A stretch of 58,185 bases of DNA, counting the filler, from Bilabrum cf. latius (Eukaryota): assembly GCA_965178125.1 (NCBI GenBank). It is 2 parts of 2 records of this genome, joined end to end, with 100 filler letters (N's around TTAATTAATTAA, not from the genome) between each part and the next. Parts side by side here need not be neighbours in the genome. Positions count along the whole stretch, not along the records: positions 1 to 29,157 come from CBCXTV010000019.1; 1 more part is not named here. One strand, given 5' to 3'. Position 1 is the stretch's first letter; every line of letters begins with the position of its first letter. This document shows, piece by piece, positions 4,465 through 30,971 of the stretch. The notes beneath the pieces were generated by a model that was given only the letters and a program-made list of their open reading frames with translations, did not search any database and was not told the origin of the DNA. The position numbers and the translations under genes were made by a program.

Positions 4465-4635
4465 TTCGCCCTGCACTCACTTTTCGAGCATAGTTGTCAG
4501 AGCGGATGCGCATGAGCAAATTGTATTTTTGTAGACAAGCATTCGACGAGAGCGCGCTTGGCATTCGCCCATCGCCCCCATCCGTCGGCAGTTGTCATCG
4601 CCGACTTCTGTCGCTCTCGGCGCATCCCGATCGAC

Positions 4636-8405: not shown

Positions 8406-8729
8406 GTCGAGGTCGACGCTCGTTTTGCATGCGTTCTTCGCGTCCGGCGCTCGTGTCGAGAAAGCGCTCGTCGATGATCGTCAATCGTCGACTCGAGCGC
8501 GAAAGGCGACGGGGCGTCCGGAGTGCGCGGCGTCGAGACAGCACAGTCGGCGCGAATTCGGATCGTGATCGGCCCTCGGTGTCGGAGAACATCGTCGGTC
8601 GCGCAGCGTTGCCGGTGTCATCGTACATCGCACCCATCTGTCGATGTCATCGTACATCGACCCCCTATGAGCGACTGGTCGTCAAAATATGTGCGGGCAA
8701 GGTCTATTGTGCATGGCCTGAGCTTGTCA

Positions 8730-9033
8730 GGGACAGTCAAGTTTGAGTCAAAATGCACGTTTCAAGCAGGAAAACCCCTTGAGACCCGTTTGGGGCCAAG
8801 AAATGCGCAAATGTCAGCCTGACGTTTGCTCAATTTCCCGGAAAACGCGCAAACGTCAGCCTGACGCTTGCTCAATTTCCCGGAAATTGAGCAAGCGTCA
8901 GCCTGACGTTTGCTCAATTTCCCGGAAATTGAGCAAGCGTCAGGCTGACATTTGCTCATGGTTTGGCCCCAAATTGGTATCAAGGGGGTTTCTTGCGTGA
9001 AACACGCTTTTTTGCCTCAACCGTGACTGTCCC
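8730..9033. repeat. ~300-bp foldback element: long imperfect inverted arms around 39-bp palindromic tandem units
   Basis: Left arm GGGACAGTCAAGTTTGAGTCAAAATGCACGTTTCAAGCAGG pairs with right arm CTTGCGTGAAACACGCTTTTTTGCCTCAACCGTGACTGTCCC. The core repeats GCGTCAGCCTGACGTTTGCTCAATTTCCCGGAAATTGAGCAA. No clean TSD seen. Confidence 0.85.
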
Positions 9034-10115
9034 ATGGCCCGTCGTTGCCAATGTCTGTTTGTCGGCAGTTGTGTTCAGGTGTGAGACTGCTCCGATGGCA
9101 AGCTTGGTGTCTGGGATGTTCGTGCTTGGATCGATGTACGGTTGCGCCATCGTGTCTGTGCGGTCGACTCGCGATGCTCGATTGTCGATCCAGTTCGGGC
9201 GGCCCCGATGCATCGCGCGCACGAGGTAATTTACTGTTCTTCCAGGCTCCGGTTCTCTCTGTACCCGGCCTCGCAGCTCGTCGGTCGTTGCCCAACTCGA
9301 TCGCATGTTCCTTGATTCGGCCTCCGTCCGTCCCATGTCTTGCCGGCGTGCCCATGCTCGCTGCACACCGAGCAGCGACTTGTCGACATGTCAAGGGATG
9401 GGTCGGTAGATGTCAGTCACTACACTTGAGTAATACTAAGGTACTTGGCTGAGTGTGGGAAGCTCGTGTCGAGGACTACAACTATGGGCGCACATATGGA
9501 TATGTACTCCGCAAGAGTGAGGTACCGCTTAATACAAAAACACAGATTGACAACGCACCGTTACTACGAGTATATATGTGTGCATATAGGAATACACACA
9601 TGGATGTACAACCATTGTCACTTGCGAGGGCGGGTGGGATGTCATGTGCGGGGGATGGGCGGAATGGGGGGAGGGTGGGGGGGGGGGGGGGGGGGGGGGG
9701 GGCGTAGAGCTGGCAAGGTAGATCGATCTTTGACAACGCGATGCTTTGTCGGTAGGTTTCCATGTGTGTTGCGGCATTCGGTTGCATACAAATGGGTATG
9801 CGTACTGGTCGGGGGCGTTCCTAGACACATGTTGGCATTATCCGTCAACGCTGGGGGTTGTGTGGCATGGCCGATGACATGTCAGATCGTCATGCAATCA
9901 TATGGCTGCGGATGTTGTCCCGACGCCTATGGGTGGGTGATGGTAGTTGCAGGTCATTCAAGTTGTCGTCTTCGCGCCCCCTCATGTACCTAGCACTGTC
10001 TAGCGCGCGCCCTTGCAGTCGTTTACGGCTCGACGCATCGTAGTTCCCTTCGGTAAGTGTGTGCTTATTTTGATACTCGACCGTCACATACCTCCCACCG
10101 GCATCGCCTATCGTC

Positions 10116-11615
10116 ATGTATGGGCAGATCAAAGCAGTCGTCGACTTCCTCTCGACCGCTCGTCTCGGCCTCGGCGACGGACAAGAGTTCGACAAGGCTC
10201 GCGAGGTGCAAGTGGCGCACTTGACCACCGTCTTGCGGAAGACTCCCGGGAGCATGGACGACGCCTCGGCGTCGATCAAGTTGCTCCAACTCGACATGGC
10301 CAAGGGGTGCTTGACGGACGACGATCGTCGCCACCTCGTTGCGACCATCACATCAACGATGTCGCAAGAGGCACCTACGTCTTTGTCGAAATCGACCTCT
10401 CGCTCGTCGAACCAGTCCCACATGCACTTCTGGAACTACATGACGGCGCTCGAGTGGGACGTCCTCAAGAGCGTCAACACCATCGACAAGAAAATCGACA
10501 TCGTCGTCACTCGTGCCCTGAAGATCGGATTGACGCACCCGAATGAGTTGACCTTCGCATCGATTACCGCCTTGTTGGTCGTGGCCGACGGCAACACGAA
10601 GACGGCTGTCGAAGCTCTCGAGATCTTGCAGAAGGTGAAACGAGTTCTTCGCGCTCGGCGGTCGGTGCACACGCAGCCGACGATCGTCTTTCCGTCGAAC
10701 GTCTCCGATTTCGTCGCCTCGTTCCCGGACTCTTGCGTCGGAGACGTCTTCGCGCCGCCTGCCTTACGCCCTGAGGACATTGAGAATCGTCGCTTGCTCC
10801 TCGCATGTCGGAAGACGCATAAGTCGGTCGGCCATGTTGTTTCTTATGGGCAACAGGCGCTCATGGCGCCGCTCGCAAACATCGACTACCACATGCTCCA
10901 GCAGCACCTCGCCATGACGAAACCCGAGCTGCGTCGGCCGGGGGAGCTCGAGATCACCATGCTCAGACGCAGGCAGAATGACGCTCGATCGGCCGAAAAC
11001 TGCCTTCCCATCGAGGATCGGGTCTCGACGATGTCCCGGGACGAGGAGCTCAAAGCTCTGTGCGATGACCCCGTCCAACGACCCGGCCAATCGCGTGTCG
11101 CGCCCGGCGATTCGACGGCAGTCGAGGCGACGGCCACGCCGCAGGAGCCTCCTGCGCGCGCGGCGACTTCGCAAACGACGCCCCCGGCGAATTCGAATTC
11201 GACGCCAGTGGGCACGCCACAGGCCGCTGTCGGATTGGACGCTACCCTGACCGATTTGGCAGCGGCGGTCGCCCATGGCAAGAAGCGGCCTAGAGACGTT
11301 TTGGAGATCGCGCCCTCGAAGCCGGCGGCGGGCAAAGCTAAAGCGAAGGGCAAGAGCAAGGCCAAAGCCAAGGTTAAGCCCGCCCCCAAGAACAAGCCGC
11401 GCAAGGTCGAGTCGAAATCGTCGAATTCGGGCAATCGCGCCGACAGCAAGGCGAAGAAGTCGCAGATTCGTGTCGAGTGGTCGCGCGAGCAGGTTGTGGC
11501 GGTGACAGGCCGCAAAGGCCCGGGGTCTACGAAGTGCTTTAAGTTTAAGGAGCTCGGTGACGCTCAGAGGGCTACCAAAGCCGCCCGGTCGTGGTTGGCC
11601 CAAAACGGTTGTTGA
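10116..11615 (+). CDS. Hypothetical protein, 499 aa, Lys-rich linker and possible C-terminal AP2-like module
   Basis: Long uninterrupted ORF with the same TCG/GTC/GAC-rich codon style as neighbouring genes. C-terminal IRVEWSREQVVAVTG...KCFKFKELGDAQRATKAARSWL has a three-strand-plus-helix AP2-like layout (weak). Confidence 0.7.
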   Translation: MYGQIKAVVDFLSTARLGLGDGQEFDKAREVQVAHLTTVLRKTPGSMDDASASIKLLQLDMAKGCLTDDDRRHLVATITSTMSQEAPTSLSKSTSRSSNQSHMHFWNYMTALEWDVLKSVNTIDKKIDIVVTRALKIGLTHPNELTFASITALLVVADGNTKTAVEALEILQKVKRVLRARRSVHTQPTIVFPSNVSDFVASFPDSCVGDVFAPPALRPEDIENRRLLLACRKTHKSVGHVVSYGQQALMAPLANIDYHMLQQHLAMTKPELRRPGELEITMLRRRQNDARSAENCLPIEDRVSTMSRDEELKALCDDPVQRPGQSRVAPGDSTAVEATATPQEPPARAATSQTTPPANSNSTPVGTPQAAVGLDATLTDLAAAVAHGKKRPRDVLEIAPSKPAAGKAKAKGKSKAKAKVKPAPKNKPRKVESKSSNSGNRADSKAKKSQIRVEWSREQVVAVTGRKGPGSTKCFKFKELGDAQRATKAARSWLAQNGC

Positions 11616-12855
11616 TCGCCGTTGGTGTGTCGCGCATCGCGTACGTTTTCGATGGCTCATTTTTCCGCGCGCTATCGGTCAATCTTTAATTCGCGGTCGA
11701 GGTCGTCTTCGTCGACCGTTCGACCATTTGTCAATAGCGTCTAGGGGAGACGACGTTGTTGCCGAGAGCGTCATTGCAGATCGCAACGCTTCAAACTGAA
11801 AAACAACCCAGCGTTTCGCTTATCGTCACCGATGCTTCTCGCCGCTCCTTGCGGTCGTCTGCTCGCATGTCGCATGCGTGTCTCCGGCTGTCTGTCGTAG
11901 TCGCCACTCAGCCGCAGGATTGATGAGATTGATGAGGTGACTTTGGCGAAGTATCGGAAAGCCAGCGCTAAGGCCAATATTCGTAGTGTGCTCCGTCTGT
12001 GTAGAATGGCTGCATATGTGGTGGCAAGAAGTTGATAATCGGGAGGTTCGCTACACTGATGACATTACTGGGCAGGAAAGCTGTGTGAGTACAAAAGAAA
12101 TACGCAGACCAAAAAAAGATGCCGGCCGTATCCTTGACGAAGATAGCCAAAATGGAAAAGCCCAGAAAGAGAGACAAACGAATACTGCAGCAGAGCGGCA
12201 ACCAGAATAAAAGCACAGTGAACAAGAGGGATATAGAGAGAGCAAGAGAGGTTGTGCGACTCAGGTACAAATAAAGAGAGAAAGAGACATACTGATAGAC
12301 GTGCATGTTAAGCGACTTACAGACAGCCAGACAGGTAGACCGACAAAATGCCAGACAGACATACAGGTAGACCGACAAACATACAGAGAGATAGAGAATG
12401 AGGACAAGACAAATAGATGCCAAACGCAATTGGTACGAATACCGCTACCCGATGACGCAGGGACGGTAAGCAGGGTGCACAGTCGAATCCCGAAGAGCTT
12501 GCAAGACTCATGTCCGCCTCCATGCGCAACTTACACACTCGATTGGTCACCTTATTTGCCCAAGATTCATCGCAATGCTGCAGTCGACAACGACCCTCGC
12601 GTTCTGTGCACAAGCGGCCCCGCTAAGAGGCAATGCTTTTGCAGCAGAGTAGTCTTGATGCCTAGAGTTTTTTGCGCTACATCGACGCATCTTGGTTTTG
12701 AGTGGGCGGGGGTGGGCGGTCAGCCTTGCGGGCGGCACCACAGCGTGAGGGGCAAGCCACAATCTTCGTGCAGCAAGCATAGCGTCGGAACAAGCACTTT
12801 TTTGCAGATTCGACTTTGAGCCTCGATTTCGCACCTCGATTAGGCGAGCCCACCG

Positions 12856-14823
12856 ATGTCGTCGTCTTCGAAAGACTCGGATGTCAAGCGCCGACGCCTC
12901 TTCTCCGATCTGCGCCTCGTGCCTGGGTGCTCTCGGACGGCAGTGTCGAAAATCTTGCAGACCTTGCACTCGCATGGTGAGCTGAAGTCGGACATCGGTG
13001 CGGCAGCCGAGCGCACGATACGAGAGCGCTTCGAGATCTCCGTTGACGACGCCGTCGCTTTGGACACGCCGTATGGACGTCTGATCGAGTCTGTCGAGTT
13101 GCAACACCCCACCCACTCGAAGCTCGAGATTGTGAATCCTTTGGCACTTCTGCATGTCCTCAGCGCTCGCAGTCGTGATTTTTACGATTTGCTCTCGACG
13201 GTCGTCAAGCCGCTTGAGCCTCGTAAGATCGTTTTGTACATCGACGAGTTGACCCCAGGGAACCCGCTGCGGCCGGAGAAGAGCAGATGTACCCAATGTC
13301 TCTATTGGACGTTCGCCGATTTCCCACCGCATGTCGTCATCAAGTCCGATTTCTGGTTCTTGGTCACAGTCGTTCGGTCGAAGATCTTGGAGGTCGTCCC
13401 CGGTCAAGCGTCGGCTCTGATGCGAACCATCTTGAAGCTCTTCTTCTTATCGAAGCATCGGAATTTTTCGCAGGGCCTCGTGGTGCAGAATGGGCACGAC
13501 AGCTTCCTTCTCCGCGCGACGTTCGGGGGATTCGTATGCGACGAAAAGGCGTTGAAAGAGGTGTTTGGCCTCAAGGGCGCCTCAGGTACGAAACCCTGCC
13601 CGACATGCGAGAATGTCGTCAAAGCGTCGCAGTCGGCACTCGCAAACACGACAGTCGTCAACTTGTCGTGCTGCGACTACTCGAAGTTCCGCTACCACTC
13701 GAATGCAACTTTCTACGAGATGGTCGACAGGTTGGCGTCGCAGATCCGCAGCGGAGCATCGAAGTCGTCAATCGAGAAACTCGAACAGCTCATGGGCGTC
13801 AACTACAACGCCAACAACTTGCTCTTTGACGACGAGTGTCGACAGATCGTGCGTCCAGTCGAGCATTATGTGCGGGACTGGATGCACACGATGGTCTCGA
13901 ACGGCGTCGCCGGAACGGAGACGGCGATGTTATTGCACGCGCTGAAGGACGAGGGCATATCGCCGTCGATGCTCGCCACGTACGCATCGAACTATCGACT
14001 GCCGACTTCGCGGGGAAAGGTCGACATGTCGTGGTTCAGCGAGAAACGCATTGGCGAAGACCATTTGCGCACCTTCGCGAGCGAGCAGTTGAATCTCTTG
14101 CCGATCGTCCTCGCTTTCGTCGAAGATGTCGTCGCTCCTCGAGGAATCCTGGTCGATCATCGGAAGTGCTTCTCCTTGCTGGTGTCCATCGTTCAGATCT
14201 TGGGCAAGGGGCCAGCGGCGTCGATGTCGCACCTTGCCACTCTTCGGGAGATGATCGTCGAGCATCATCGTCTTTTCGTGGCCTTGTACCCGCAAGCGGT
14301 CAAGCCCAAGTTCCACCACATGATGCACCTCCCGGAAGACATGCAGAAAGTTGGCGCGCTGCTATCATGTTTCCCAACTGAGCGAAAGCATCGAGCGGTC
14401 AAATCGTCTTGCTTAGTCGTTTTTCGCCATTTCGAGCATACATTGTTGATCGATTTTGCTCATCGCCAGTTGAATTCTCTATTAGAGCCGACGCTGTACC
14501 AAGAGGCCATCTTGATAAGGCCGACAGTCGTTCCGAATCGCAACATTTTGACGTCGAAGTCGGCCCGTCTTCCATGCGGCGAAGCGCATGTCGACGACAT
14601 GTGTTTGATGAGGTCGCGAACCGTCGGCCGAGTCGAGGCTTTCGTGGATGTCCAAGGTCAAGTCGTCGCGATGGTCCGGGAACTCGCACAAGCCGGGGGC
14701 CTCCATCGGTGGACGACCGAAGATTCGAGCGTTGCCGCTCGTTTTGCCGACGAAATTGTCAGTTTGTTGTCGTGGGCTCCATGTAATCCTTGTGTGGTTC
14801 GTGTGTGCATGCCTGCAGTTTGA
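12856..14823 (+). CDS. EnSpm/CACTA-type (Plavaka-like) DDE transposase, 655 aa, intact
   Basis: Motifs LYIDE, FVCDEKALKEVFGLKGASGTKPCPTC (D...KG..G..PC..C), RDWMHTMVSNGV (D.MH...GV) and KPKFHHMMHLPEDMQKVGALLSCFPTERKH (K.H...H...G...F..E) are characteristic of CMC-EnSpm transposases. Confidence 0.85.
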   Translation: MSSSSKDSDVKRRRLFSDLRLVPGCSRTAVSKILQTLHSHGELKSDIGAAAERTIRERFEISVDDAVALDTPYGRLIESVELQHPTHSKLEIVNPLALLHVLSARSRDFYDLLSTVVKPLEPRKIVLYIDELTPGNPLRPEKSRCTQCLYWTFADFPPHVVIKSDFWFLVTVVRSKILEVVPGQASALMRTILKLFFLSKHRNFSQGLVVQNGHDSFLLRATFGGFVCDEKALKEVFGLKGASGTKPCPTCENVVKASQSALANTTVVNLSCCDYSKFRYHSNATFYEMVDRLASQIRSGASKSSIEKLEQLMGVNYNANNLLFDDECRQIVRPVEHYVRDWMHTMVSNGVAGTETAMLLHALKDEGISPSMLATYASNYRLPTSRGKVDMSWFSEKRIGEDHLRTFASEQLNLLPIVLAFVEDVVAPRGILVDHRKCFSLLVSIVQILGKGPAASMSHLATLREMIVEHHRLFVALYPQAVKPKFHHMMHLPEDMQKVGALLSCFPTERKHRAVKSSCLVVFRHFEHTLLIDFAHRQLNSLLEPTLYQEAILIRPTVVPNRNILTSKSARLPCGEAHVDDMCLMRSRTVGRVEAFVDVQGQVVAMVRELAQAGGLHRWTTEDSSVAARFADEIVSLLSWAPCNPCVVRVCMPAV

Positions 14824-15829
14824 TCGTGCGTCGGGACAATCGCCCTGAGGCTAGACCTCGCTCGATCTTCAAGTCGTTTGCTGTTTTTTTCTCTCGTAGG
14901 CCGAAAGATCGTGTGCCGAGGAGCGACCGATTGAAAGTTCTTGCAAAATGAGCTCGCGCTTACTGCAGAAGTTGGTGAAGGACACACCCACCTCGCCGAC
15001 CAAGAGACCAATCCACCTACCACCACTACCACAAGCCCCCCAAACAGCTATGTACCCCGCCCCTGCTCCTCCCGAGACATACACACACCCTGAAACATTT
15101 ACGAAGACACACGCCGACGGACGCGCAAAAGTCCACCCCAACACATGCGGCTACATATACATATACACAGGCACATGTGTATGAAGATATACATATGTGT
15201 ATGAATATATACACATACACAAGTTCTTGCAAACCCCAGCAACGCCACACTAAACTTAATTAAGCTTTGTCTGCTTAAACCCAATTCCTCCATGCATGGT
15301 TGAAGGAAAAAACTTATTTTGTGGTCTGGCCTTTGGAAAAACAGTCAAAGCGCACATCCACATTTCTGCTCCCCGGCTAGCGGTGTCGATACTGGCGATC
15401 ATCTTTGCTTTAAACACATTTCCCCGCCAGGCTTCCGCCGACATGAACGAAGTAGGGTGTAGTATCGTGTAACTTGCAAAATTCATTGTACAGACTCTCC
15501 CTGCAGGGCCAGTTTCTAGTATCAAAATTGCTCTTAAGAGCATCGATGTACGGTGGCGGAGGGTATCATGCGGTACTGTGAGACACAAGCCTACAGCGCA
15601 GTGGATCATGTTTTGGGCGAATAGATTTGGCACTAGATCTGGGGCAGATTAGGTTTTGTCAGAGTGAGACAGTGTATTGTGGACAGATGCTGTCGCGCAC
15701 CTTTTTGTGTTGGCTGCGACTGTTGCCTAGTGTGGCGCCCATTACAATTTCTCTGGCTGCATAATCAAGCGCTGAGGCTTTCACAAGGTGGGTGTAGTGA
15801 GAAATGTAGTATATGCAGAAAGACGGGGG

Positions 15830-18190
15830 ACCGGCGATTTTGCCTCGTCCGGCGCCAGGCCACCAGTAAATTGTCTGCAACTCGCAGTGATCTGCGTACT
15901 CAGACAAAAGTTAGACCCCAAGTTTCAGGGTCCCGTTTTTCTTCGGGTTTTCTCGGGGGTGCTTAAGCTCCCCTGAGGCATTATAGAGGCTTTCCTTTGC
16001 CAGAAATCAAATTGGTCCAGGACGAGGCGCAAGTGATATTTGCACTTCGTCTGGCGCCACACAACCAGGATGCATTTTCCATCGCAGTCGACTGCGAACT
16101 CAAACCACTCAGGGTTTAGGGTTGAGGGTTTCGGTCCCGGGGTCTTATTTGTGTGAAGGGTTTGCTTGGAATCTTGGTGCTGGGTTGAGGGGCGTTCCGG
16201 AGGGTTTTTTTTAGTTGGCATGCTGGTATGTCCAGAGGGAACAAGTAGCGCTTTTGATGTGCCTGGCGCCAGACGACCAGTGGGTCTTTTGGCATGCAAT
16301 CGACAGCGATGTGAAAACGCTTAAGTTTTCGCATCGGGCTCCGATTTTTGGCTTCATATTGTCTTGGGATCGTGGGGCTAAGTTGCGGCGTTTTCGTCAC
16401 AGCTTTTCAGTTGGACTGTTAGTATGTGCAGGGGCCAGAACTAGTGGCGTTTGGGCCTCGTTTGGCGCCTACGACCAGTGACTTTTTCGTAATTTGTTTT
16501 GGACTGCGAAGTTAAATTGTTTAAAGCTTGGGGTGGGGGTTCGGCCCCGGGTCTCATTTTTGTCCTAAGGGTTTTTTCTCGGGGTCTTGGGGCAAAGTTG
16601 GTTTTAAATACGAATTTAGCACAGATCTTAGTATGTTGAAGAATGGCCGCAAGTGGCGTTCTTACCTCGTCTAACGCCATACGACCATTGGGTTTTTGAG
16701 TTCGCAGCCGGCTATAATCTATCGACGTTAGGCTTTCGGGATTGGGCCCCGGAGCACGATGTGTTCAAAGGGTTTTCTTGGGGTATGTAAGGCTAAGGTG
16801 GGTTTTTAGTAGAGCGTCTTCAGTAGGAATCGCAGTATGTTCCAAGACAGTGGGCCGGTGGTATGTTTGCCTCGCTTGGCGCCGCCATACCACCAGTGTT
16901 TTTTTAGATCGCAACCAAGTGCAATCCAAGGTTACTTAGAAGTCGGAGTAAAGTTTTCGGGCCCCGGGATCCAACTTTTCATTTTGGGTTTTTCGGGGGA
17001 CTGTTGGGCTAACATGAGTTTTCTCAAAGGGTGTTCAAGTAGGAATGCTAATATGGATGAGGGGCAAGCGGCGTCCTTGCCTTGTCAGGGGCCACATGAC
17101 CAGTGGGGTTTTACATGTTTGCTGTCAACCGCAAACACAACACACTTAGGGTTTAAAGGTTTCGCATTTTGGCCCCCAGATCCTAGTTTTTTGCATTAGG
17201 GTTGTCTTGGGAGCTTGGGCCAATGTGCGGTGGGGTGAAAGCTCTTAGGGATCTAGCATATCGAGGACAAAGGGCCGGCAACCTTCTCGCCTCGTCCTGG
17301 CGCCAGACGACCAGCGTTTTTGGTAATTCGCAGTCGCCTGCATGCGAAACGAGATACCATTGTCTACCTCAGTGTTTTCTTGGGACTGCGGGCCTACTCG
17401 AGGAGGGTCTAAAGCTCGTTTAAGTAGGAATTGCAAAAGACTTAGGCGGACGGGCAAACAACGTTCTTGCCTCGTCGGGCGCCAGACGGCCAGTGAGGGT
17501 GTTCAGTTCGCACTCGACTGCGATTTCCCCTAGAACCGGAGAAGTATCTGAAGAATCCGTTCTTATATGGGGGTTTCGTCAACCCAGTTTAGGTATCCCT
17601 ACAAAATCTTTATGGAGTTCATAGAAACTCCGAAAGTATGTTGGCGAAAAACCTTATATAACAACGGGTTCTGCAGGTACTTGGATCCAGGAAAAAAGGG
17701 CAGGCGTTCTGACCTCGCCTGGCGCCAGACAACCAGTTGCTTTTGGAATTTGCAGTCGACTGCGACTTGAAACTACTTAGGCTTTAAAAAGTTAGCCATT
17801 GTTTTTTGAAGGATTTTCTTGGCGTTGCGGGGTCTACTTGAGGGGGCTTACAGCTCGTTCGAGTAGGCGTTTTAGTATCTTTAGAAAGGGGGAGCAGGCA
17901 GCGTTCTTGCCTCGTCCAGCCCCAGGCGACCAATGAGTGTGTTTAGCTCGCAGTCGGCAGCGTTTTCCGAAATGATCGGACAAGTCGTTGCAGAATCCGT
18001 TGTTACATGGAGTTTTTCGTTAACAAAGTTTCGGAACCCTTAAAAAATCTATACGGATGTCCCAGGGGTCCCAAAATCATTTTGACAAAAACCTTACATA
18101 ACAAGGGATTCTGCTGGTACCTGCGGGAGGAGGGGCAGGGGCGTTCTTGCTTCGTCTGGCGCCAGGCGACCAGTGATTCTTTGAAATCGT
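15830..18190. repeat. Degenerate tandem array, 12 units, mean period ~210 bp, two palindromes per unit
   Basis: Core GCGTTCTTGCCTCGTCTGGCGCCAGACGACCAGTG ... TCGCAGTCGACTGCGA. GGCGCC-equivalent centres at about 15851, 16053, 16265, 16464, 16673, 16878, 17088, 17299, 17478, 17721, 17918, 18158. Confidence 0.9.
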
Positions 18191-18646
18191 AGGTCGTGCT
18201 ATGTGGGTCCTCATAGCCAAGATGACGGAAAACTGTGGCCGCCCCTGTAACGTCGGATTCAGCATGTACTTGGGGCTCATCCGGGGGTTGCAAGGGGCTT
18301 TCGGAGTTGCCCCCTGTGTTACAGGGCTTTGTACCTGCTGAACCCGACATTACAGGGATGTCCAAAAAAACGCCTGTCATCTTGGATACGACACCAAACA
18401 TTAACCTTTATGTGCGCCATGTGGATTCTGTAGCCAAGATGACGGACCTTGTCATGGGGCGTTTTTGGCGGCGCGCGCCTCCCATGTGCAACTTCGGTGG
18501 CGGACGCAAAGCGTTTAGAAACGTGTCGGAATGAGATTCCCACTTTCGGGCGTCATGACCTCCCTGCTTCCATGACTCCGACCACCCTTCCTTTGGCATC
18601 CCGCCTGCAACTTTCGCAGGGTGGATTTTGCCATTTTTAAGGGGCC

Positions 18647-18740
18647 GCTAAGTGACTTAGCCGACTTAGCTAACTGACTTAGCTAAGTCGGCTAACTCAC
18701 TTAGCCGACTTAGCTAAGTGTGTTGTAAGTCAGACTTATA
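18647..18740. repeat. Short subterminal direct/inverted repeats (GACTTAG / CTAAGT) near the CACTA end
   Basis: GCTAAGTGACTTAGCCGACTTAGCTAACTGACTTAGCTAAGTCGGCTAACTCACTTAGCCGACTTAGCTAAGTG. This arrangement is typical of CACTA subterminal binding sites. Confidence 0.8.
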
Positions 18741-18824
18741 ACACCCCTAAGTGGGTTAAGAACACGTCCATGTTAAGTACACTATAACTGAGTTATAAGA
18801 CAGCCAAGTAGTCATACCTACTTA

Positions 18825-18847
18825 CAAAAAGGGCCGCCAACATAGTG
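18825..18847 (-). repeat. Right terminal inverted repeat of the CACTA element (CACTATGTTGGCGGCCCTTTTTG on the minus strand); predicted 3-bp TSD CAC at 18848-18850
   Basis: TAGTG terminus lies exactly at the compositional break. The partner TIR is outside the window, so TIR length and TSD are unconfirmed. Confidence 0.7.
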
Positions 18848-20816
18848 CACCCCTGGCCTAGCCGCTGTCGTAGCCGGGTTTGTGCACCAGGCGTGGCAGG
18901 CGCAGCAGTGGCAACAGGCCTGTGCACGTCGGAAGGATTTTCCGCGGCGCGCCGGTTCCTGACTTCGCCGCGGTCGCTGCCGAGGTCGGTCGCGCTCGAC
19001 CGGAGGACCAGGCCGCGGCGCTCCGCTCCCTCCTCGTCGGCAGTGCCATCCCCCGAGCGGTGGCGGTGCACTGGACCAGCACGGCCCAGTGCCCGTACTG
19101 TGGCGCCCCCGCCGAGACCCTCGTCCACCGCTTGTGGACATGCCCGCGCTGGGCGGCGCTCCGCACGCAGGCTGCCTCCCGGCCAGTCGCGGCGCTCCCG
19201 GCGGCCATGGCGCAGCACCTCATCCTCCCCCGGGATGCCGACGCCGAAGCGGCCCGCTGTGCCGCTGAGGCCACCGAGCTCACGCCGGTCACTGCGCGCC
19301 CGGCTGGTACCGTCTACACCGACGGTATCGCGCTTGACCCCCGCAACCGGCTCCTCCGCAGGGCCGCTTGGGCCGCGACGTGGTTCGCGGACGGGTCCTG
19401 GCGCGCGGTGGTGGGAGGTGTCCCGGGCCGCCAGACGGCGGCGAGGGCCGAGCTCACGGCGCTCGAGTGGGTGGCCCGCGCGTTGGCGGCCGGCGCTCCG
19501 GTCCGCGAGGTGGTCACCGACTGCCAATACGTCGCCGATGGCGCCGTGGCCCTGGCTCGGGACCTTGGCGCCGGCCTCGCCCTGGGCTTGGACGGGGACC
19601 TCTGGTCCTCGGTCGCCCGGAACCCCCCGCGCGCTCGCTGGGTTCCCGCCCACCTCGAATGGCCCCAGGCCGCTGCCCGGGGCTTGTCACGGGCCGACTG
19701 GTTCGGCAACCGCCTCGCCGACCAGCTGGCCGGCCGCGAGGCCCACCGGCGCCGTGCCCCCAGCCCGCTGCGCCGCCGCCGCAGAGCCGGCCTCCGCCTC
19801 CTCCGCAGCGCCTACGACATCGCCGGGTGCGTCCAGGTTGCCGCCTTGGAGGAGGGCCGGCGGCTGGGTACGCACCGCCACGGCAAGCGCCGTCCGGCGG
19901 ATTGACCGCGCCCCCCGGAGGCCGGGCCGCTGCCCGCCGCCCGCGCCCCCGCCGGACCCCCCCTGACGCGCAGCACCCGCTGGTGCACGACCTCTGGCCC
20001 GCCGAAGGACCCGTCGAGGCGGCTGCCTCTCTCCCGCGGCGGGGCTGCCGTGGGTCGCCGAGTGCCGCCGCTGCGGTACTCGGGCCTCCCACACCGCCCG
20101 CTGGCGTTGCGCTGCTCCGCACGCCCTTTGGCGGCGAGCAGTGGGATTGGGACCGCCATGACCTCGAACCCACCGCCGGAGGCTGGCGCTGCCGCCGCTG
20201 CTGGCTCTTCGCCCGGCCTGGGCACCCGGTCGAGGCGGCCCGGGGCCGCTGCCCCGTCCCCTCTTCGGCCCCGCCCGTGGCGCAGGCGGCCTTCCGCGTG
20301 GTGTTTGCCCGGATCGCGGACTGGCGGCATTGGTACCGTGGCGGCGAGCTCACCCCCCCCCCCCGTTGGGTACCTTGGCGGGCGGATGCTGCCATTCCGC
20401 GCGCACTACCTCTTGGCGGCTCGGCGGGTGAGCGCCTATGCCTCCGCTGCGGGCGGGCGGGCCCGCCCAAGTCCTTCGGCGGCCGCCCTTGCGTCCAGGC
20501 GGCGGTCCTCACTGGCCCCGCCGCTGCCTTGCTGCACTCCGGTCACCTCGATGCTCAATTGCGCGCCGCCCCACGGTGGGTGCAGTTGCGGGCGCGGGAG
20601 GCCGGCTGGTGCGATCTGGACGCGACCCCGCCTCTTGCCTCTGCGGGCCCGCTGGCCCCAGCGGCTGGGGCACCCTCGGCCTCCGCGGCCGCTGCCGCCG
20701 GCGGCCGCTCGCGGCGCCTGCCTTCAGGCCAGGACCCCTCGCCGCCGCTGGAGACCGCACGCTTGCGGCCCCGGCGGTTCCTTCCCCCCATGCGCTGCCG
20801 CCCGCGGGCCTCGTAG
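18848..20816 (+). pseudogene. 3' part of a non-LTR retrotransposon ORF2: zf-RVT + RNase H + Cys-rich tail, frameshifted
   Basis: CPYCGAPAETLVHRLWTCPRW (zf-RVT). VYTDG...QTAARAELTAL...VVTDCQYV...RWVPAH...GNRLADQLA (RNase H D-E-D-H-D). Upstream frame TPGLAAVVAGFVHQAWQAQQWQQACARRKDF begins right at the CACTA terminus. Confidence 0.9.
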
Positions 20817-21246
20817 GTGCCCCGCTTGGGCGGTCCGGAGCGGACGCCGCAGCCGCTGCTGCAGCCCGCGCCACGCCCTCCGAGGTCGCTGCCCCCGCCG
20901 TTGTCGCCGACATCCTCGGCTTGCGCCACCGCCGCCGGCGGCGGCCCTCGCGGCGGCTGGGAGAGCTGTGACCGGTGTAGGCGCGTCGCCCGCGCGTGCG
21001 TCCGCGCGCGCTCGCGGGTCTAGCCGCTGCCGGGCGATCTGAGCCGCCGCTGCGGCCGCCGCGCTCATGTGAGGCGTCCTTGGGTCTCCGCGGCCGCTGC
21101 CGGAGCCGGGACTGAGCCGCTGCTGCGGCCCGCTCTGTTCTGATCGCTGAGGCCGCGCGGCGCTCCCCGCGTCCTGCGCGCGGCCGCACTCTCCTTGCAA
21201 CATACGTTGCTGAGCGTACGCGAAGGCCGAGCCCAACCAAAAAGCG

Positions 21247-21312
21247 GGTGGGCGCGCGGGCGGGCGGGCGGGCGGGCGGGCGGGCGGGCGGGCGGGCAGG
21301 CAGGCGGGCTGG
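21247..21312. repeat. (GGCG)n microsatellite (similar tract at 29258-29362)
   Basis: Direct reading. Confidence 0.9.
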
Positions 21313-22036
21313 CTCACATGGTGGGTGGGAAGAATGAATTCACTTGGCCGGGGTGCAGGCTGCGCGCGTAGTCGGTCGTCGTCGCATGTGTTCCCAGGCG
21401 GGCATCAGTCAGTGGGCAGTGGCGGTTGGCCCCTTGCGATCCTCGGTTGTGTCGCCGCTCCTCGGTGCCTTTGCCAAATTCCAGCATTCGTAACAGATTC
21501 GACGGCTTGCAGCATGCACTGTGTATAATTATGCTGCGCACGCGTCTTGTGACTTAAGACATGTTTCCGGAGCGGCTTGCAATCGCGAACGTGCGTTAAT
21601 TTTCGCGCGTTCGTTGCGTTTTCTCGCACGTCGGTCCAGACGGTCGGTCTTTCGGTTCTCTCTTTTCCTCTTTTTCGCGGATCTAGTGGGGGAGCCGCGC
21701 AGGCAAGCGTGGTATTCTGTGTTTTTTTTCAGCTCCAGAGAGGGTGTCCATTTCTTTATGCGCCGATTGCTTCAAGTGGTCGTGCGTCCGCCGCGCGTCG
21801 TCCATGCCGCTTGTCTTGACAGTTGGGCTTTGTACGACGCATTGTAATCAATGTCGTGCGCACGTGCGGCTTCGAACTCCTACGATTGTCAAATATGACT
21901 GTGACGGATGTGCGGGCTCTGGGGGTGCGTGCAATCGTCATGGTTGTTGGGTCGGCAGCCAACTCAGCCAAGTCTCCTCGAGCTGTACCGCTGCGCGGTT
22001 TGTTGTCGGACCAGTTGCGCTTCATTGTTGGCGATA

Positions 22037-22464
22037 CTCCAGGTTGGTTAATTGGGGTTCCGGGATAAGTCAGCGTTCCGCTGGCCCGGCCGGCCGAGAT
22101 TTGGCCAAGTTTTGGGCCGATTTGGGCCGATTTTGGGCCGATTTGGGCCGATTTGGGCCGATTTTGGCCGATTTGGGCCGATTTGGGTCGAATTTTGGCC
22201 GATCTTGGCCGAATTTTGGCCGATTTGGGCGGATTTGGGGCCGATTTGGGCCGATTTTGGCTGAGTTTGGCTGAATTTGGGCCGATTTGGGCCAACTTTT
22301 GGCCGATTTTCGCCAAGTTTTGCCAAAATCGGCCCAAATCGGCCAAAACAGGCCCAAATCGGCCGAATTTCGGCCCAAATCGGCCCCAAATTCGGCCAAA
22401 GTTTGGGCCGGCCGGGCCGGCGGAACGCCGACTTACCCCGGAACCCCAATTAACCAACCTGGAG
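22037..22464. mobile_element. TA-flanked MITE (Tc1/mariner-type), ~60-bp TIRs, interior of 10-11-bp GATTTGGGCC repeats
   Basis: TA|CTCCAGGTTGGTTAATTGGGGTTCCGGG ... CCCCGGAACCCCAATTAACCAACCTGGAG|TA. Interior repeats switch orientation part way through. Confidence 0.9.
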
Positions 22465-23573
22465 TAGTGTTTTTTGGATGGTGATGTTGCGTGGTTTGTT
22501 CTTTGCGGCTTCTTCTTCTTTCTAGACGCTGACCTTGATGTGCAAACCGCTTCGGCGGCGCAATGCTCGGCGGGGGAGTGTCACCGAGGTGCCGGAGCGA
22601 AGGACAGCAAGCACATGATGCAGACGATCATGAGGATGCCCAGGCGGCTCGATGACCTGTCACTCATGAAGACAGCGGGGAGCAACATAGTGCTCAACGA
22701 GAAGCTGCGTCGGTCGTTGGAGAAACTGCAGACGCTCGTCCGATTGGGCGAGGACCACGAGTCGCTAAAGGACCACATGAAAAACACGATCGAGTCCTTG
22801 CAAGCTCACATGCACTTCTACCAGAAGGTCTCTGGTATGTCTGCAGCCTTGAACAGCAATTGGCGGACCGCAGCCGCCCTCCCCCCCAAAAGCGCTCAGC
22901 GGACGCTTGGTATTCACGACATCCTCAAGAAATCGAGAAGGTCGAGAAGTATGAGATTGATCCCGAGCAGTCGTCCATGATTTCGTCACCTTGGCAGGGA
23001 AGTATGGCGGCACTAAAGAAGTCGAGCAGTTGACAGAGCGCATCAAAGCACCCGCGAAAGATATTGCATCGGAGGAAAACTTTGGGCGTCCTTGGGGATC
23101 GATAAGCGGCCTCGGAGGGAGCCAACGGCGCAATACCTTAGCGACAAGCCCTTTCGGAGTGTCGTCCTTCCCTACGTAGATTGATTGAAACACAGTCTGA
23201 TCGAACATCGGCCTAAAGGCATGGGGGATGAAACCGAGTGGAAAGTTGAGACATGGGGGAAATCAACGAAGCACCAAGAGCAAGCGCCGACAATTATGTA
23301 GTCACTAGGTTTATGCTGGATTTTTTGGTTTGGATGATGACTTCTTGGGTCGGTGCCCTTTAGATTGGTTTGGAGATCTTGCAGTTTTGTTGGTTGGAGC
23401 TACCGAGTAGTCATGAAGCACCTGACCACTTACAAAACTCCGAAAGCCAGGCGCCTCGGCTCAGATTCCCAGAACAGGCGCCGCACCCCCAGGCAGACCC
23501 CCACAAAAGCGACAGGGTGCCAAACCTACTCATCATCGAAGTTGCCAGCACCGGGAGGCCTGCACCATCTGCC

Positions 23574-26500
23574 ATGGTAGCACTGCTCTGCGTCATGCTG
23601 CTCGTGTTGTACAACCTCCTCACTGCCAGGTACGCCGACCGTGCGTAAGAGATCAGCGACGAGTTCTCTCGCGCAGCCGTCGTGGTGCTTCCAGGCACGC
23701 AGGTCCGACAGGGCGATCCGGACGTCCCGGTCACTCAATGTCGGCTCCCGCATCATGTGGAGTACTCCGCCGGGTGGCGCCGCAGCCGTCACACCAACCG
23801 CAGTGCGGGTGTCAGCATATACATCCGGCACTCTTTGGTGCCGAACATTGTTCAAGTCCACCGCTCGCCACATGGACTGTCGGGCCGCCTGCTCGCGCTC
23901 CGAGTCGAGACTGAGAACCTCGACCTGCTGATCGTGGCCGCCTACTACCCCCCCTTCAACTATCAAGTGACCGACACTGACAAGCGCATGACGGCATGGA
24001 TCAGCGAGCTTTTGGACCGCACCCCCTCCCGCACCCTCCCGCTTCTGATGATGGACCTCAACGACGGGATCGGCAAGCGGCGCGATGTCACCGGCAATTG
24101 GCAGTCGGTGGACGACGGCTACTGCGGCGACCACCGCACTCGCGAGAAGCACCAGGGCATGCTTGTCCGCGAGATGGCCACCGAGCATATTTTGTCTTGC
24201 CTCGGCTCCCAATCGGTCGCCCGGTGCGACGTACTGGGGCCCCCAACGTCACCCGAGCGAGCCCGACCAAGTCTTCCTCCCATGGACGGCGCTGCACCGA
24301 GTACAACGGTACCATGCTCTTCGTCATGCACACCGCCGACTTCAACCGATACGTTCTGCTGCGCTTCGTGACCAGTCGCCGCTATTGTTGCAAGTCGACG
24401 TCAGGCCAGAAGCCCAGCAGGCCCCTCGGCCTCGCGAAGCCCTCGTCAAGTGCATGATGACTGGCGCTGGCCGCGAGGAGTTCATCACTGATGTTGACAT
24501 GGCCATCCGCGAGGTCCTTGAGGAGCGGTGGGCGGAGGCCGAGGACTCCACCACTGCCGACAAGTACTGGGAGCTTGTCTACGAGGCGGTGGTCCGAGTG
24601 GCTAAGAAGCATTTCGGATCCACGCCCGACCCCGAGCGAGCAACCTTCGTCGAGCGCCGCATGGAGTTCCCCAGCCGTCGCCGGCAACTCCGCGCCGACA
24701 TGTCCGGCATCGATGACGACGAACTTGAAAAACGTATGTCTCGAACTCCACATGGTCACCCGCCGCCTCCGACGCTTGCACCGACACCGTCGCCGCCAAG
24801 AAGACAACCAACTCGTCGAGGACATCTGGCGCGCTTGGCGCGCTCGCGATTTCACCCGCGTTCACATGCTTCGGGTGCGCCTCGCCCGCACCGGATGCGG
24901 TCCCCGCAAGCGCAAGTTCTACGCCCCAAAGCTCTCGCAGCCCGAAATTGGCCAATGGACTGCCACACTGTCCAAGCTTGGCGGTGAAGGCGGGCATGCT
25001 GGCCCGCCCGGTCAACTTCTCCGACATCGTCGCCGAGCACATCCGATGTAGCGACCAGGAGGCCGACACGAAGCTCCATATGGACACCTACATCGCCAAC
25101 GACGTCTTGGACTGGTCCCTCGGCATCGGCCGCGTCTTTCGAGGAGCCAAGAAACGGAAAGCCTGCCCCCCATGGTCCGCGCCGGCGGAGGTCTGGCTGA
25201 TGGCCATGCGGCCTAACTCGCACAACCGAGCCCACCTGCATGCTGGCCTTGGCGCGCACCTGCCTCGTCGCATCGCCAACAACGCCTTCCGCGAACGTAT
25301 GACAGCTATGCTCACTCGTCGCACAGGTTGGGCGCCCAGGCTCTGGTCCCGCTCCTACGGCTGCCCGCTGGACAAGCCGAACGGCCGCGAAGGCACCGGC
25401 GGCATGCGCTTAATTCACATGTTCGACCCGCTCGGCTCCGCCATCTTCGGCGAGTCCCTGCGTCGTGGCCACAGGTGGACGAACCCAAGTGGTCCTTTGG
25501 GTCTCTTACCGGTCGGAGCCGGGACGAGGCTGTAGTTCTGCTTCTTGCTGGTGCTTGGCGCCTTCGCGACATGCGGCTTTCGCGCATCACAGCGTACTAT
25601 GACGCCGCCAACGCCTTCCCGAGCATTGCGACCATCGACGCCGAGGCTGCGGTGACACAGCTTAGCCCTCTTGCGGAGTCGTACCTGCATGTTGATCATC
25701 TTCGCCAGCAAGTTGTCAGCATACCCGATCGCCATGGCCAGCTACATGATTACGATATCGGCCAAGGCATCGCCATGGGACAGGGCGGAGCGTCGCACAC
25801 ATTCGTGCGAGCATACACCACCGTCCTAGGCCAGTTCAGTTCAACTTGCGCTACGCTAATGCTGCCCCGGAGTGCGCGAGCACCGTGAGCGTCCGCGACC
25901 CGCTCTCCAGTTCTCCATCCGACTTGAGCCTCAGCATATATGTTGACGATGTCTGTAAGGCCAGTGTTGTCCCCCACTCCCGCGACGACGCCTCCGTTGC
26001 GCCGGACCCGCCGTCGACGGACTACCAGCGCACCACCGCCGACTTAGCCGCCCACATGAAGAGCTCGCAGTGCACTTTCGTTGTGCGCAAGACTGTCTGG
26101 ACACTTGCGGTGTACGGGCGGGGGCCTACCGGCGAATGCGACAGATTACGGCCCAGCCCGGCTGCGCACGAGACGCGCATATCTGGGTCCGTACCTGTCG
26201 CGAAGCCATGTATATGTTGAGGAGCTTCGCCGGCGGCTTCTTGCAGCCGACAAAGGATGGCGCATGCTGGGCCGCTTCTGGGGCCGCCCCACACCATGGC
26301 GTCTCCGCCGCATGATGTACATCGCCTTCGTGCAGAGCGCCCTCTTGAGCGGCCTCACCGCGTTTCCCGAGTTGCCCGACTACTACTACCGCGCTCTTGA
26401 GCAGCGGCAGGTGCGCCGTCCCCGCGTCATGCTGCAGGGCAAGGAGCACAAGCAAGAGGGGGACAAACACACTGCCATGAGTAACTGCGATGTGCGCAGT

Positions 26501-30682: not shown

Positions 30683-30971
30683 AGCCCAAATTCGTCCTCT
30701 ACTGCGCGCGGATTCTCTGACCCCCCCCCCCCCCGCCCCGGGGATAGGAAAGGGGGACCAGAATTGGGGCCGCAGGAAGGTGACGAATCCGCGGCCCCGA
30801 TTTCAGGACCGCGGGCCTGGTTTTGAGACCGTTTCCGGCCCAGAGAAAATGGACACGAAAAAGTGAAAGCCCGACAGTAGACAGGAAGATCTTGCAGTTG
30901 GTGCAAAAGGAAGAGATCGCAGCCGCGGCCGGAGCGTCTGGGCCGCAGCGCTCGACTGGAAGGCCTTCGAC

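What the first reader, a model, noticed from the sequence alone, without database searches (positions are those of the whole stretch)
15830..18190. 12-unit ~210-bp array in which two palindromes are conserved while the rest decays
Seen: each unit keeps TCGTCTGGCGCCAGACGA (18-bp palindrome consensus) and, ~20 bp later, TCGCAGTCGACTGCGA (16-bp palindrome), while the T-tract-rich linkers are highly diverged. Spacings are 202, 212, 199, 209, 205, 210, 211, 179, 243, 197, 240; the last four units form a ~440-bp higher-order dimer. Established: CACTA subterminal repeats are normally short 10-20-bp motifs, like those at 18647-18740. Inference: selection maintains phased twin binding sites for two dimeric proteins (synapsis, partition or chromatin-positioning scaffold), or a repeated hairpin RNA.
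Basis: partly seen in the sequence, partly recalled or inferred. Interest (0 to 1): 0.75.

Follow-up and report, generated by a model that had tools for sequence, protein, structure and literature searches.

The report
Old repeat array inside a transposon
A real but much-decayed 12-unit, ~205-bp repeat array sits in the non-coding tail of a cut-and-paste transposon whose enzyme folds like RAG1; two short palindromic boxes per unit change about half as fast as the rest, which fits protein-binding sites rather than hairpins, though binding is untested.

Summary
Conservation is not uniform. The two consensus palindromes evolve at about 0.5x the rate of the rest (LRT p = 3e-8) and are the two best-conserved 18-column blocks. 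They are decayed all the same: one unit has a perfect 16-mer, and the one unit that matches the 18-mer carries a 1-nt insertion. The most invariant letters (CCA) lie just outside palindrome 1. Neither strand shows compensatory change, so a hairpin RNA or cruciform is not supported.

Context: the array lies between a 655-aa transposase gene (RAG1/Transib-like fold, Z 16; D-D-E with C(2)C and H(3)H, the CMCT/CACTA-Transib signature) and a boundary at 18847 that reads CACTATG from outside. A conserved partner ORF1 lies upstream.

In one run the array has the same contig depth as its flanks, so it is not a generic high-copy satellite. The closest precedent is the satellite arrays near the 3' end of plant CACTA elements.

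Best reading (0.4): a transposon-borne array of weakly constrained protein-binding boxes. Main rival (0.33): a neutral frozen minisatellite.

It is a new member of a known kind, of moderate interest.

The parts
15815..18222 (+). The array: 12 head-to-tail units of 179-243 bp. Each has a ~77-nt core (GGCAAG..CTTGCC hairpin-capable box, 18-bp palindrome 1, CCAGTG, a T-run, 16-bp palindrome 2) and a G/T-rich linker. Unit 12 is cut short after its core.
   Evidence: 12 profile matches; unit alignment; spacings
17294..17312 (.). Best-kept copy of palindrome 1 (unit 8): all 18 consensus letters, but with a 1-nt insertion.
16082..16097 (.). The only perfect copy of palindrome 2 (unit 2).
17264..18222 (+). 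Higher-order part: short-long-short-long-(cut) units 8-12. The long units 9 and 11 carry a different, A/T-richer linker that is not alignable to the short type.
   Evidence: repeats D6 and D11 at spacing 440; linker identities 0.38-0.46 against the other units and 0.68 between units 9 and 11; clade of units 9 and 11
12856..14823 (+). Transposase gene (655 aa from the ATG; P0001 numbering starts 4 residues earlier). RAG1/Transib-like fold; invariant D134, D233, C252-x2-C255, H491-x3-H495, E513; a BAH-like beta domain at residues 553-651.
10116..11615 (+). ORF1 (499 aa): helical N-domain, disordered Lys-rich linker, small C-terminal domain of three strands and a helix. It is the conserved partner of the transposase in related loci.
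18211..18457 (.). Long imperfect inverted repeats (foldback) between the array and the short subterminal repeats.
   Evidence: inverted repeats I25 and I6; DNA fold z = -4.3
18647..18740 (.). Short (22-bp period) palindromic subterminal repeats, GCTAAGT/ACTTAGC type.
18801..18847 (-). Putative right terminus. Read from outside: CACTATG, then 31 nt, then ACTTGGCTG. A contig of run X5 stops matching at 18845 and runs on unlike. The neighbouring high-copy repeat starts at about 18850.
9418..9451 (+). Candidate left terminus, weak: CACTACA, then 18 nt, then the same 9-mer ACTTGGCTG. No target-site duplication and no subterminal repeats.

Best explanation
What it is (shown): an old, non-coding, 12-unit minisatellite of about 2.4 kb. 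It lies in the 3' part of a two-gene cut-and-paste DNA transposon of the CACTA/Mirage/Chapaev/Transib (CMCT) kind. It starts about 1 kb after the transposase stop codon and ends 657 bp inside the boundary that reads CACTATG. Units have diverged by 0.17-0.45 substitutions per site on their terminal branches, while the transposase and ORF1 frames are intact.

How it most likely works (inferred): each unit carries two short boxes that act, or acted, as double-stranded binding sites for proteins. The first is a ~33-bp box centred on palindrome 1 and running on into CCAGTG. The second is the 16-bp palindrome 2, whose centre lies about 35 bp from that of palindrome 1. The most likely binder is the element's own ORF1, by analogy with TnpA of En/Spm; the transposase or a host factor are also possible. 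Twelve redundant copies would concentrate that protein at the 3' end, to help assemble the transposition complex or to control the element. Because the sites are redundant, each one is only weakly constrained, which gives a twofold slowing rather than strict conservation.
For: Rate heterogeneity along the unit (units 1-11; unit 12 left out because it is cut short):
- With six partitions the relative rates are palindrome 1 0.44, palindrome 2 0.56, hairpin-0 box 1.00, spacer 0.85, linker 1.05 (2dlnL 43.9, df 5, p = 2e-8).
- Palindromes against the rest: 0.50 against 1.08 (2dlnL 30.7, df 1, p = 3e-8).
- The best non-overlapping 18-column windows are palindrome 1 (identity 0.73), palindrome 2 (0.63), and then columns 16-33 (0.61).
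- Base composition does not explain this. In the linker, G/C and A/T consensus columns are equally conserved (0.57 against 0.61).
- Two non-homologous linker types flank the same core.

Pattern of change: half-sites drift independently with no compensation. That is expected for double-stranded protein sites and not for hairpins.

The array is inside the element:
- The transposase has a RAG1-like fold (Foldseek E 5e-8; VIA Z 16.1, rmsd 4.9, 448 residues aligned).
- It has the invariant D, D, C(2)C, H(3)H, E pattern. Passages of PMC12730594 give this pattern as the CMCT signature.
- The boundary at 18847 reads CACTATG and coincides, within 2 nt, with the point where an X5 contig diverges. CACTATG is also the ProtoRAG terminal heptamer (PMC8289069, passages).
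- ORF1 has relatives next to transposase relatives in 11 of the 79 loci.

The array is not a generic satellite: 12 of 12 core matches lie in the array and 0 in the 79 loci. X2 contig depth is 160-204 over the array and 131-185 over its flanks.
Against: - Nothing shows binding.
- Most palindromes are broken: symmetry is 4-9 of 9 pairs for palindrome 1 and 2-8 of 8 for palindrome 2.
- The slowing is only about twofold.
- The most invariant letters (CCA) lie outside palindrome 1, and the two arms are not conserved symmetrically.
- The core motifs occur nowhere else in the window, including the termini. The left side has no counterpart array.
- ORF1's C-terminal domain matches no AP2 or other DNA-binding family by sequence, and its fold search was uninformative.
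- The left end and the target-site duplication were not found, so 'inside the element' rests on the right boundary and on gene order.
- The rate partitions were chosen after seeing the data. The twelve units are one locus and not independent lineages.
Confidence: 0.4

Rival explanations
1. Neutral 'frozen' minisatellite. A ~205-bp unit was amplified once in, or captured into, the element's non-coding tail, as happens in other transposons, and has simply decayed. The slower boxes reflect local differences in mutation or repair, conversion between units seeded at the palindromes, and worse alignment of the indel-prone T- and G-runs. They do not reflect function.
For: - The palindromes are mostly broken.
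- The rate difference is only about twofold.
- There is no mirror array and no other copy of the motifs.
- Related loci often carry unrelated tandem arrays in their flanks. With TRF at period 40 or more, arrays lie downstream in 10 of 22 loci and upstream in 13 of 29 loci that have at least 1 kb of flank. Array formation therefore looks like a habit of these elements.
- A plant CACTA element carries a captured 171-bp satellite near its 3' end (PMC8978399, section 10).
- The window holds other arrays of palindromic units: a 42-bp unit at 8801-8958, a 13-bp unit at 30362-30685 and 10-bp units at 22098-22397.
Against: - Composition does not explain the heterogeneity.
- The two slowest blocks coincide exactly with the two palindromes out of about 250 columns.
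- The same core persists next to two unrelated linker types.
- MAFFT inflates identity in a saturated linker, so the true contrast is larger than measured.
- The array has persisted, in phase, for far longer than the intact reading frames beside it could survive without selection on the element lineage.
Confidence: 0.33
2. Chromatin scaffold. The ~205-bp period is about one nucleosome repeat, and the boxes together with the G/T-rich linkers phase nucleosomes or nucleate a chromatin state at the element's 3' end. That state could be read by the BAH-like domain of the transposase.
For: - Unit lengths cluster at 197-212 bp in 8 of 11 spacings.
- The linker has strong strand asymmetry (GC skew +0.21, AT skew -0.23 over 16001-17000).
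- The linker is enriched in GGGTTT: 13 of the 26 + strand occurrences in the window fall in 4% of its length.
- The transposase C-terminus (residues 553-651) resembles BAH domains (DNMT1 BAH1: Z 10.4, rmsd 2.3, 95 residues aligned).
Against: - Nothing here measures chromatin.
- Three spacings (179, 243, 240) break the phase.
- A 200-bp period is common among satellites for unknown reasons.
- The BAH likeness is a fold match of a predicted model only.
Confidence: 0.1
3. Repeated hairpin RNA or DNA cruciform. Each unit is transcribed into, or extrudes, two or three stem-loops (small-RNA precursors or structural signals).
For: - The consensus can form three consecutive stems: 6 bp, then 7-9 bp, then 6-8 bp.
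- A T-run follows palindrome 1.
Against: - There is no covariation on either strand. Paired cells equal the shuffled expectation. Double changes are 4 against 7.5 expected on the + strand and 3 against 7.0 on the - strand.
- No tRNA gene was found in the window, and no Rfam match at E up to 1 falls inside the array.
- Most stems are broken in the present copies.
Confidence: 0.04

Closest known systems
Satellite arrays carried inside plant CACTA elements (Chenopodium 'Jozin'; PMC8978399, section 10 read)
   Same: A long tandem array of satellite-sized monomers (171 bp there, about 205 bp here). [quoted passage not shown]
   Different: There: 32.5 monomers, with consensus monomers 97.7-98.8% alike between the elements that carry the array, and a similar satellite also found without connection to CACTA-like elements in another species. 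Here: 12 units only 50-62% alike, found once, no free copies seen, and marked rate differences within the unit. The transposase here has no Pfam Transposase_21 match.
En/Spm (CACTA) subterminal repeat regions bound by TnpA (recalled knowledge; general description in PMC8978399, Background passage)
   Same: Repeated motifs near the element end, partly as inverted pairs. A second element-encoded protein is the presumed binder.
   Different: Those motifs are 10-20 bp, closely spaced, within a few hundred bp of both ends. The 22-bp repeats at 18647-18740 fit that description. The 205-bp array does not: it has a long period, lies on one side only, and lies 0.66-3.0 kb from the end.
ProtoRAG / Transib / RAG1 (PDB 6b40, 6pqx, 6dbw and others; PMC8289069, passages)
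   Same: The fold of the transposase core (Z 14-16). The D-D-E pattern with C(2)C and H(3)H. A terminal heptamer CACTATG identical to ProtoRAG TR1. A 9-mer lies 31 nt further in, and ProtoRAG's 3' TIR spacer is also 31 bp.
   Different: No sequence-level match to RAG1 or Transib chains (profile search of the PDB). No RAG2-like partner, but a helical ORF1 instead. A BAH-like C-terminal domain. No 5-bp target-site duplication found. I did not search the literature for long internal arrays in Transib or ProtoRAG elements.
Internally repetitive ends of Galileo/Foldback-type elements (PMC3573991; search listing and abstract only)
   Same: Transposon ends that hold tandem repeats of about 100 bp or more.
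   Different: There the repeats lie in long inverted termini on both sides. Here the array is on one side and in direct orientation only.

Membership tests
[quoted passage not shown] | DDE catalytic triad in the transposase | tested here: met
   D134, D233 and E513 are invariant in 28 aligned relatives. Their assignment as the catalytic residues is inferred from their order and from the RAG1-like fold, not from a residue-level superposition.
[quoted passage not shown] | [quoted passage not shown] | tested here: met
   C252-x2-C255 and H491-x3-H495 are invariant and lie between D233 and E513.
[quoted passage not shown] | RAG1/Transib-like fold of the catalytic core | tested here: met
   Model pLDDT 89.7. 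Foldseek: RAG1 E 5e-8, BbRAGL E 3e-5, HzTransib E 9e-4. VIA: Z 16.1, 15.1 and 14.4, with 407-461 residues aligned.
[quoted passage not shown] | Sequence-profile match to a named family (Pfam Transposase_21, Plavaka, RAG1) | tested here: not met
   None of the 28 members matches any of these at E up to 1. The profile search of PDB sequences finds no RAG1 or Transib chain. The language-model atlas gives only leads: Plavaka 0.93, Transposase_21 0.92.
[quoted passage not shown] | Termini 5'-CA..TG-3' forming inverted repeats | tested here: inconclusive
   The right boundary reads CACTATG from outside and coincides with a contig break in X5. The left candidate CACTACA at 9418 shares only CACTA and one 9-mer with it (by my rough estimate, about a 3% chance match).
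[quoted passage not shown] | Target-site duplication of 2-5 bp | tested here: not met
   For the candidate ends the flanks are ..CAGT and CACCC..; no duplication of 2, 3 or 5 bp. The right flank is a high-copy repeat and the left end is uncertain, so this does not exclude transposition.
Transposon-borne satellite array (as in Chenopodium CACTA) | Head-to-tail monomers inside the element, between the genes and the 3' end | tested here: met
   Transposase stop at 14823, array at 15815-18222, boundary at 18847.
Transposon-borne satellite array (as in Chenopodium CACTA) | The same monomer also amplified as a free satellite | tested here: inconclusive
   No other copy in the window or in the 79 loci. 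X2 contig depth over the array equals that of its flanks. No whole genome is held.
Structured RNA / hairpin repeat | Base pairs kept through compensatory change | tested here: not met
   Both strands: paired cells equal the shuffled expectation, and double changes are fewer than in shuffles.
Structured RNA / hairpin repeat | Match to a described RNA family | tested here: inconclusive
   No tRNA gene in the window. No Rfam match inside the array at E up to 1.
AP2-domain protein with its binding-site array | An AP2 domain in an element-encoded protein | tested here: inconclusive
   ORF1 has no Pfam AP2 match at E up to 10. Its C-terminal 45 residues are predicted as three strands and a helix (pLDDT 83-89), a topology I recall as AP2-like. 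Fold searches did not test that small domain. A weak AP2 match (E 0.003, below Pfam's cut-off) lies in another ORF at 4516-5427, outside the candidate element.
AP2-domain protein with its binding-site array | Specific binding of the protein to the boxes | not testable with these tools
   Needs DAP-seq, EMSA or ChIP.

The most novel reading that the evidence does not exclude
The array is a cis-acting landing pad that the element lineage has kept for a long time. It would hold twelve nucleosome-length units, each with two different operators. These would load ORF1 dimers and/or the BAH-bearing, RAG1-fold transposase onto the 3' end and set its chromatin state. That would be a long-period, two-operator scaffold of a kind not described, as far as I know, for CACTA/Transib-type transposons.
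Probability: 0.15. Interest if true: 0.65.

Novelty: new member of a known kind. Interest (0 to 1): 0.35.

Why it matters
Tandem arrays inside DNA transposons are known as seeds of satellite DNA, and here the array itself is ordinary in kind. Two things make it useful. First, its units are old enough that differences in rate within the unit can be measured. They point to two short boxes that can be tested directly for protein binding. Second, the element is a member of a large, unnamed family: 156 relatives in one metagenome collection and no Pfam model. Its transposase has the RAG1/Transib fold and motif pattern, a BAH-like tail and a conserved partner ORF1. If the boxes bind ORF1 or the transposase, this would give an accessible system for studying how RAG1-fold transposases from protists find and pair their ends.

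Tried and rejected
- Whole genome: none is held for this window.
- Mirror array or any second copy of the array in the window: none found by self-BLAST or by the core profile.
- Core motifs elsewhere in the window: 8-mers of the core are not enriched outside the array.
- Likeness of the cores to the termini: right end 10 of 200 shuffles as good, left candidate 190 of 200. Dropped.
- Subterminal ACTYRG-type motifs at the left candidate: 2 in that 100-bp bin, not convincing.
- Inverted termini in 35 related loci: none credible, because the contigs are too short.
- Homologous arrays in related loci: none. The tandem arrays found there are unrelated in sequence, and some look coding.
- tRNA or Pol III reading of the core: no tRNA gene and no Rfam hit in the array.
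- Telomere-like reading of the linker: only one TTTAGGG and one GGGTTTAGGG. Kept as a note only.
- RNA evidence: no RNA holder listed for the stretch.
- Contigs laid on the stretch cannot give copy number or absence. The parts of X5, X6 and X7 without cover are not interpreted.
- ORF1: whole-model Foldseek and VIA-wide searches gave only generic helical matches. The C-terminal profile gave no PDB or Pfam hit.
- ORF1 N-domain self-association with complex prediction: never run, because the queue was full at every try.
- Viral collection: one isolated 18-nt chance match, with no array.
- Earlier notes of this scan: nothing on this genome, this sequence or these words.
Full report
OBSERVATION

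The window is G+C-rich (about 0.6), and the stretch 15-19 kb is lower at 0.49-0.53. A profile built from the ~95-nt cores of the units finds exactly 12 + strand matches in the window (E 1e-20 to 6e-16). All lie at 15822-18192. The other rows of that call are weak - strand echoes of the palindromes themselves.

The 18-mer consensus occurs 7 times with up to 3 mismatches, all in the array, against 0.07 expected. The 16-mer occurs 10 times, 5 of them in the array, against 0.74 expected. Tandem Repeats Finder misses the array at two settings because the units are too diverged. Self-BLAST finds no other copy and no mirror array in the window.

HOW CONSERVED

Aligned units share a core of about 77 nt. 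It holds a GGCAAG-N7-CTTGCC box, palindrome 1, CCAGTG, a T-run and palindrome 2. The rest is a G/T-rich linker with one weaker conserved patch (GGGTTTTCTTGGG).

Mean pairwise identity in 10-column bins is 0.74 and 0.73 over palindrome 1 and 0.59 over palindrome 2. It is 0.16-0.33 over most of the linker. In separate pairwise alignments of units 1-11, the core is 0.62 identical and the linker 0.50, against 0.45 for shuffled sequence. The core exceeds the linker in 53 of 55 pairs.

I ran a partitioned likelihood analysis on units 1-11; unit 12 is cut short and was left out. It gives relative rates of 0.44 (palindrome 1), 0.56 (palindrome 2), 1.00 (first box), 0.85 (spacer) and 1.05 (linker). Equal rates are rejected (2dlnL 43.9, df 5). 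For palindromes against the rest the rates are 0.50 and 1.08 (2dlnL 30.7, df 1, p = 3e-8). The two best non-overlapping 18-column windows are the two palindromes. G/C and A/T columns of the linker are equally conserved (0.57 against 0.61), so base composition is not the cause.

Three caveats apply. The partitions were chosen after looking at the data. The units are paralogues at one locus. The saturated linker is over-aligned, which makes the contrast conservative.

LIMITS OF THE 'TWO PALINDROMES' PICTURE

Units match palindrome 1 at 11-18 of 18 positions, with 4-9 of 9 symmetric pairs. They match palindrome 2 at 8-16 of 16 positions, with 2-8 of 8 symmetric pairs. One unit has a perfect 16-mer. 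The only full 18-mer carries an inserted base. The most invariant letters are G28, C36 and C37, and the CCA just after palindrome 1. The right arm of palindrome 1 is its least conserved part, and conservation of the two arms correlates weakly (0.35 and 0.27). So the first conserved box is about 33 bp and asymmetric, with the palindrome at its centre.

NO HAIRPIN SIGNAL

I counted 23 pairs of the three possible stems on both strands. On the + strand, 74.2% of cells pair, against 74.3% in shuffles. On the - strand the figures are 73.1% and 73.9%. Cells with changes on both sides number 4 against 7.5 and 3 against 7.0. No tRNA gene was found in the window, and no Rfam family matches inside the array.

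AGE AND ARCHITECTURE

Terminal branches of the unit tree are 0.17-0.45 substitutions per site. Units 9 and 11 form a clade. They share a longer, A/T-richer linker that is at or below random identity to the other linkers (0.38-0.46) and 0.68 identical between the two. The same core thus sits next to two unrelated linkers.

CONTEXT

One kilobase upstream of the array, a 659-residue open frame (ATG at 12856, stop at 14823) has 35 relatives at 33-49% identity and no Pfam domain. Its model (pLDDT 89.7) matches RAG1, amphioxus RAG1-like and Transib transposases (Foldseek E 5e-8 to 9e-4; VIA Z 16.1, 15.1 and 14.4 over 407-461 residues). Residues 553-651 resemble BAH domains (Z about 10).

Invariant residues in 28 relatives are D134, D233, C252-x2-C255, H491-x3-H495 and E513. 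Passages of PMC12730594 give this pattern for the clade of EnSpm/CACTA, Mirage, Chapaev, Transib, Plavaka and RAG1. A protein-atlas search gives Plavaka and Transposase_21 clusters as leads only.

ORF1 (10116-11615, 499 aa) has relatives in 11 of the 79 related metagenome loci, beside the transposase relative that each locus was fetched for. Its model has a confident helical N-domain, a disordered Lys-rich linker, and a small C-terminal domain of three strands and a helix. No AP2 or other family could be assigned.

ENDS

At 18841-18847 the + strand reads CATAGTG, that is CACTATG from outside. This is the heptamer reported for ProtoRAG termini (PMC8289069, passages). It fits the 5'-CA..TG-3' rule of the clade. 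A contig of run X5 matches up to 18845 and then runs on unlike. From about 18850 a G+C-rich repeat with an RNase H domain begins, and its contig depth in X2 is about 100 times that of the left side.

Between the array and this boundary lie a foldback (18211-18457; z = -4.3) and the short 22-bp palindromic repeats (18647-18740).

A candidate left end at 9418 (CACTACA) shares with the right end only CACTA and a 9-mer, at 18 nt against 31 nt inside. It has no target-site duplication and no subterminal repeats. It is unproven.

NOT A GENERIC SATELLITE

In X2, contig depth over the array (160-204) equals that of ORF1 and of the sequence to the left (131-185). The neighbouring repeats reach 15,000 and 486,000. 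Depth of contigs is a rough guide only. Runs filed under other organism codes (X5, X6, X7) hold pieces of the array with 0-3 differing letters and up to 7 gaps per piece. They are therefore not diverged relatives and allow no comparative test.

None of the 79 related loci holds the core. Many do hold unrelated tandem arrays in their flanks: downstream in 10 of 22 and upstream in 13 of 29 loci with at least 1 kb of flank. At the same settings the window has 5 such arrays in 58 kb.

INTERPRETATION

Shown: a real, old, non-coding array inside, or at least directly beside, the 3' end of a CMCT-type two-gene element. It has two boxes per unit that change about half as fast as the rest, and it has no structural covariation.

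Inferred: the boxes are redundant, weakly constrained double-stranded protein sites, most likely for ORF1 by analogy with TnpA of En/Spm (recalled knowledge). I give this 0.4. A neutral frozen minisatellite is nearly as likely (0.33). A chromatin-phasing role is possible (0.1). A hairpin RNA is unlikely (0.04).

COMPARISON WITH WHAT IS KNOWN

The closest known case is the satellite array of 32.5 monomers of 171 bp near the 3' end of a 16.5-kb Chenopodium CACTA element (PMC8978399, section 10). The present array differs in being diverged, found once, and heterogeneous in rate. The short repeats at 18647-18740, not the 205-bp array, correspond to classical CACTA subterminal repeats.

Literature: I ran four searches. 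Of the papers cited I read one section and passages of PMC8978399, passages of PMC12730594 and PMC8289069, and only the search listing and abstract of PMC3573991. I did not search specifically for arrays in Transib or Plavaka elements, so 'not described' is my impression only. Supplements were not consulted.

Noticed in passing
12856-14823 (+), with relatives P0002-P0036 and L001-L079: A large, unnamed transposase family: 156 relatives in one metagenome collection and no Pfam model. It has a RAG1/Transib-like fold (Z 16), the CMCT motif pattern, and a C-terminal BAH-like domain (residues 553-651, Z about 10 to the DNMT1 and ZMET2 BAH domains).
   Followed up: partly
10116-11615 (+): ORF1, the conserved partner of that transposase: a confident helical N-domain, a long disordered Lys-rich linker, and a small C-terminal domain of three strands and a helix with no family match. 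In relatives it lies upstream or downstream of the transposase.
   Followed up: partly
18850-21320: A 77% G+C repeat with an RNase H domain (ORF 18874-19902) and a (GCGG)n tail at 21244-21313. Its contig depth in X2 is about 100 times that of the neighbouring sequence, and other copies continue further to the left. It looks like a 5'-truncated retroelement abutting the transposon end.
   Followed up: partly
22039-22466: A foldback-type miniature element. It has ~28-bp inverted termini (CTCCAGGTTGGTTAATTGGGGTTCCGGG and its complement) enclosing arrays of a 10-bp unit (TTTGGGCCGA) in both orientations. It has by far the highest contig depth of the laid stretch (486,000 in X2).
   Followed up: partly
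8770-8995: Another foldback-like element, whose inside is 3.8 copies of a 42-bp unit that is itself a palindrome (8801-8958).
   Followed up: no
30362-30685: 25 copies of a 13-bp palindromic unit (GCTCTCTCAGAGC). Arrays of palindromic units recur in this window.
   Followed up: no
22484-25000 against 6000-18679: In run X2 the sequence left of the repeats is matched at about 99.5% identity and depth 130-200. The sequence right of 22466 is matched only at about 94-96% identity and depth 4-10. The two sides may differ in strain, haplotype or copy number, or the assembly may be joined across the repeats.
   Followed up: no
15815-18222 (linkers): GGGTTT is strongly enriched on the + strand of the array: 13 of the 26 + strand occurrences in the window, and none of its complement inside the array. 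Unit 2 holds GGGTTTAGGGTTGAGGGTTT, which looks telomere-repeat-like.
   Followed up: partly
37599-38852 (+) and 4516-5427 (+): A DDE_1 (pogo-type) transposase fragment (E 1e-11), and an ORF with a weak AP2 match (E 0.003, below Pfam's cut-off). Pfam finds hardly anything else in the window.
   Followed up: no
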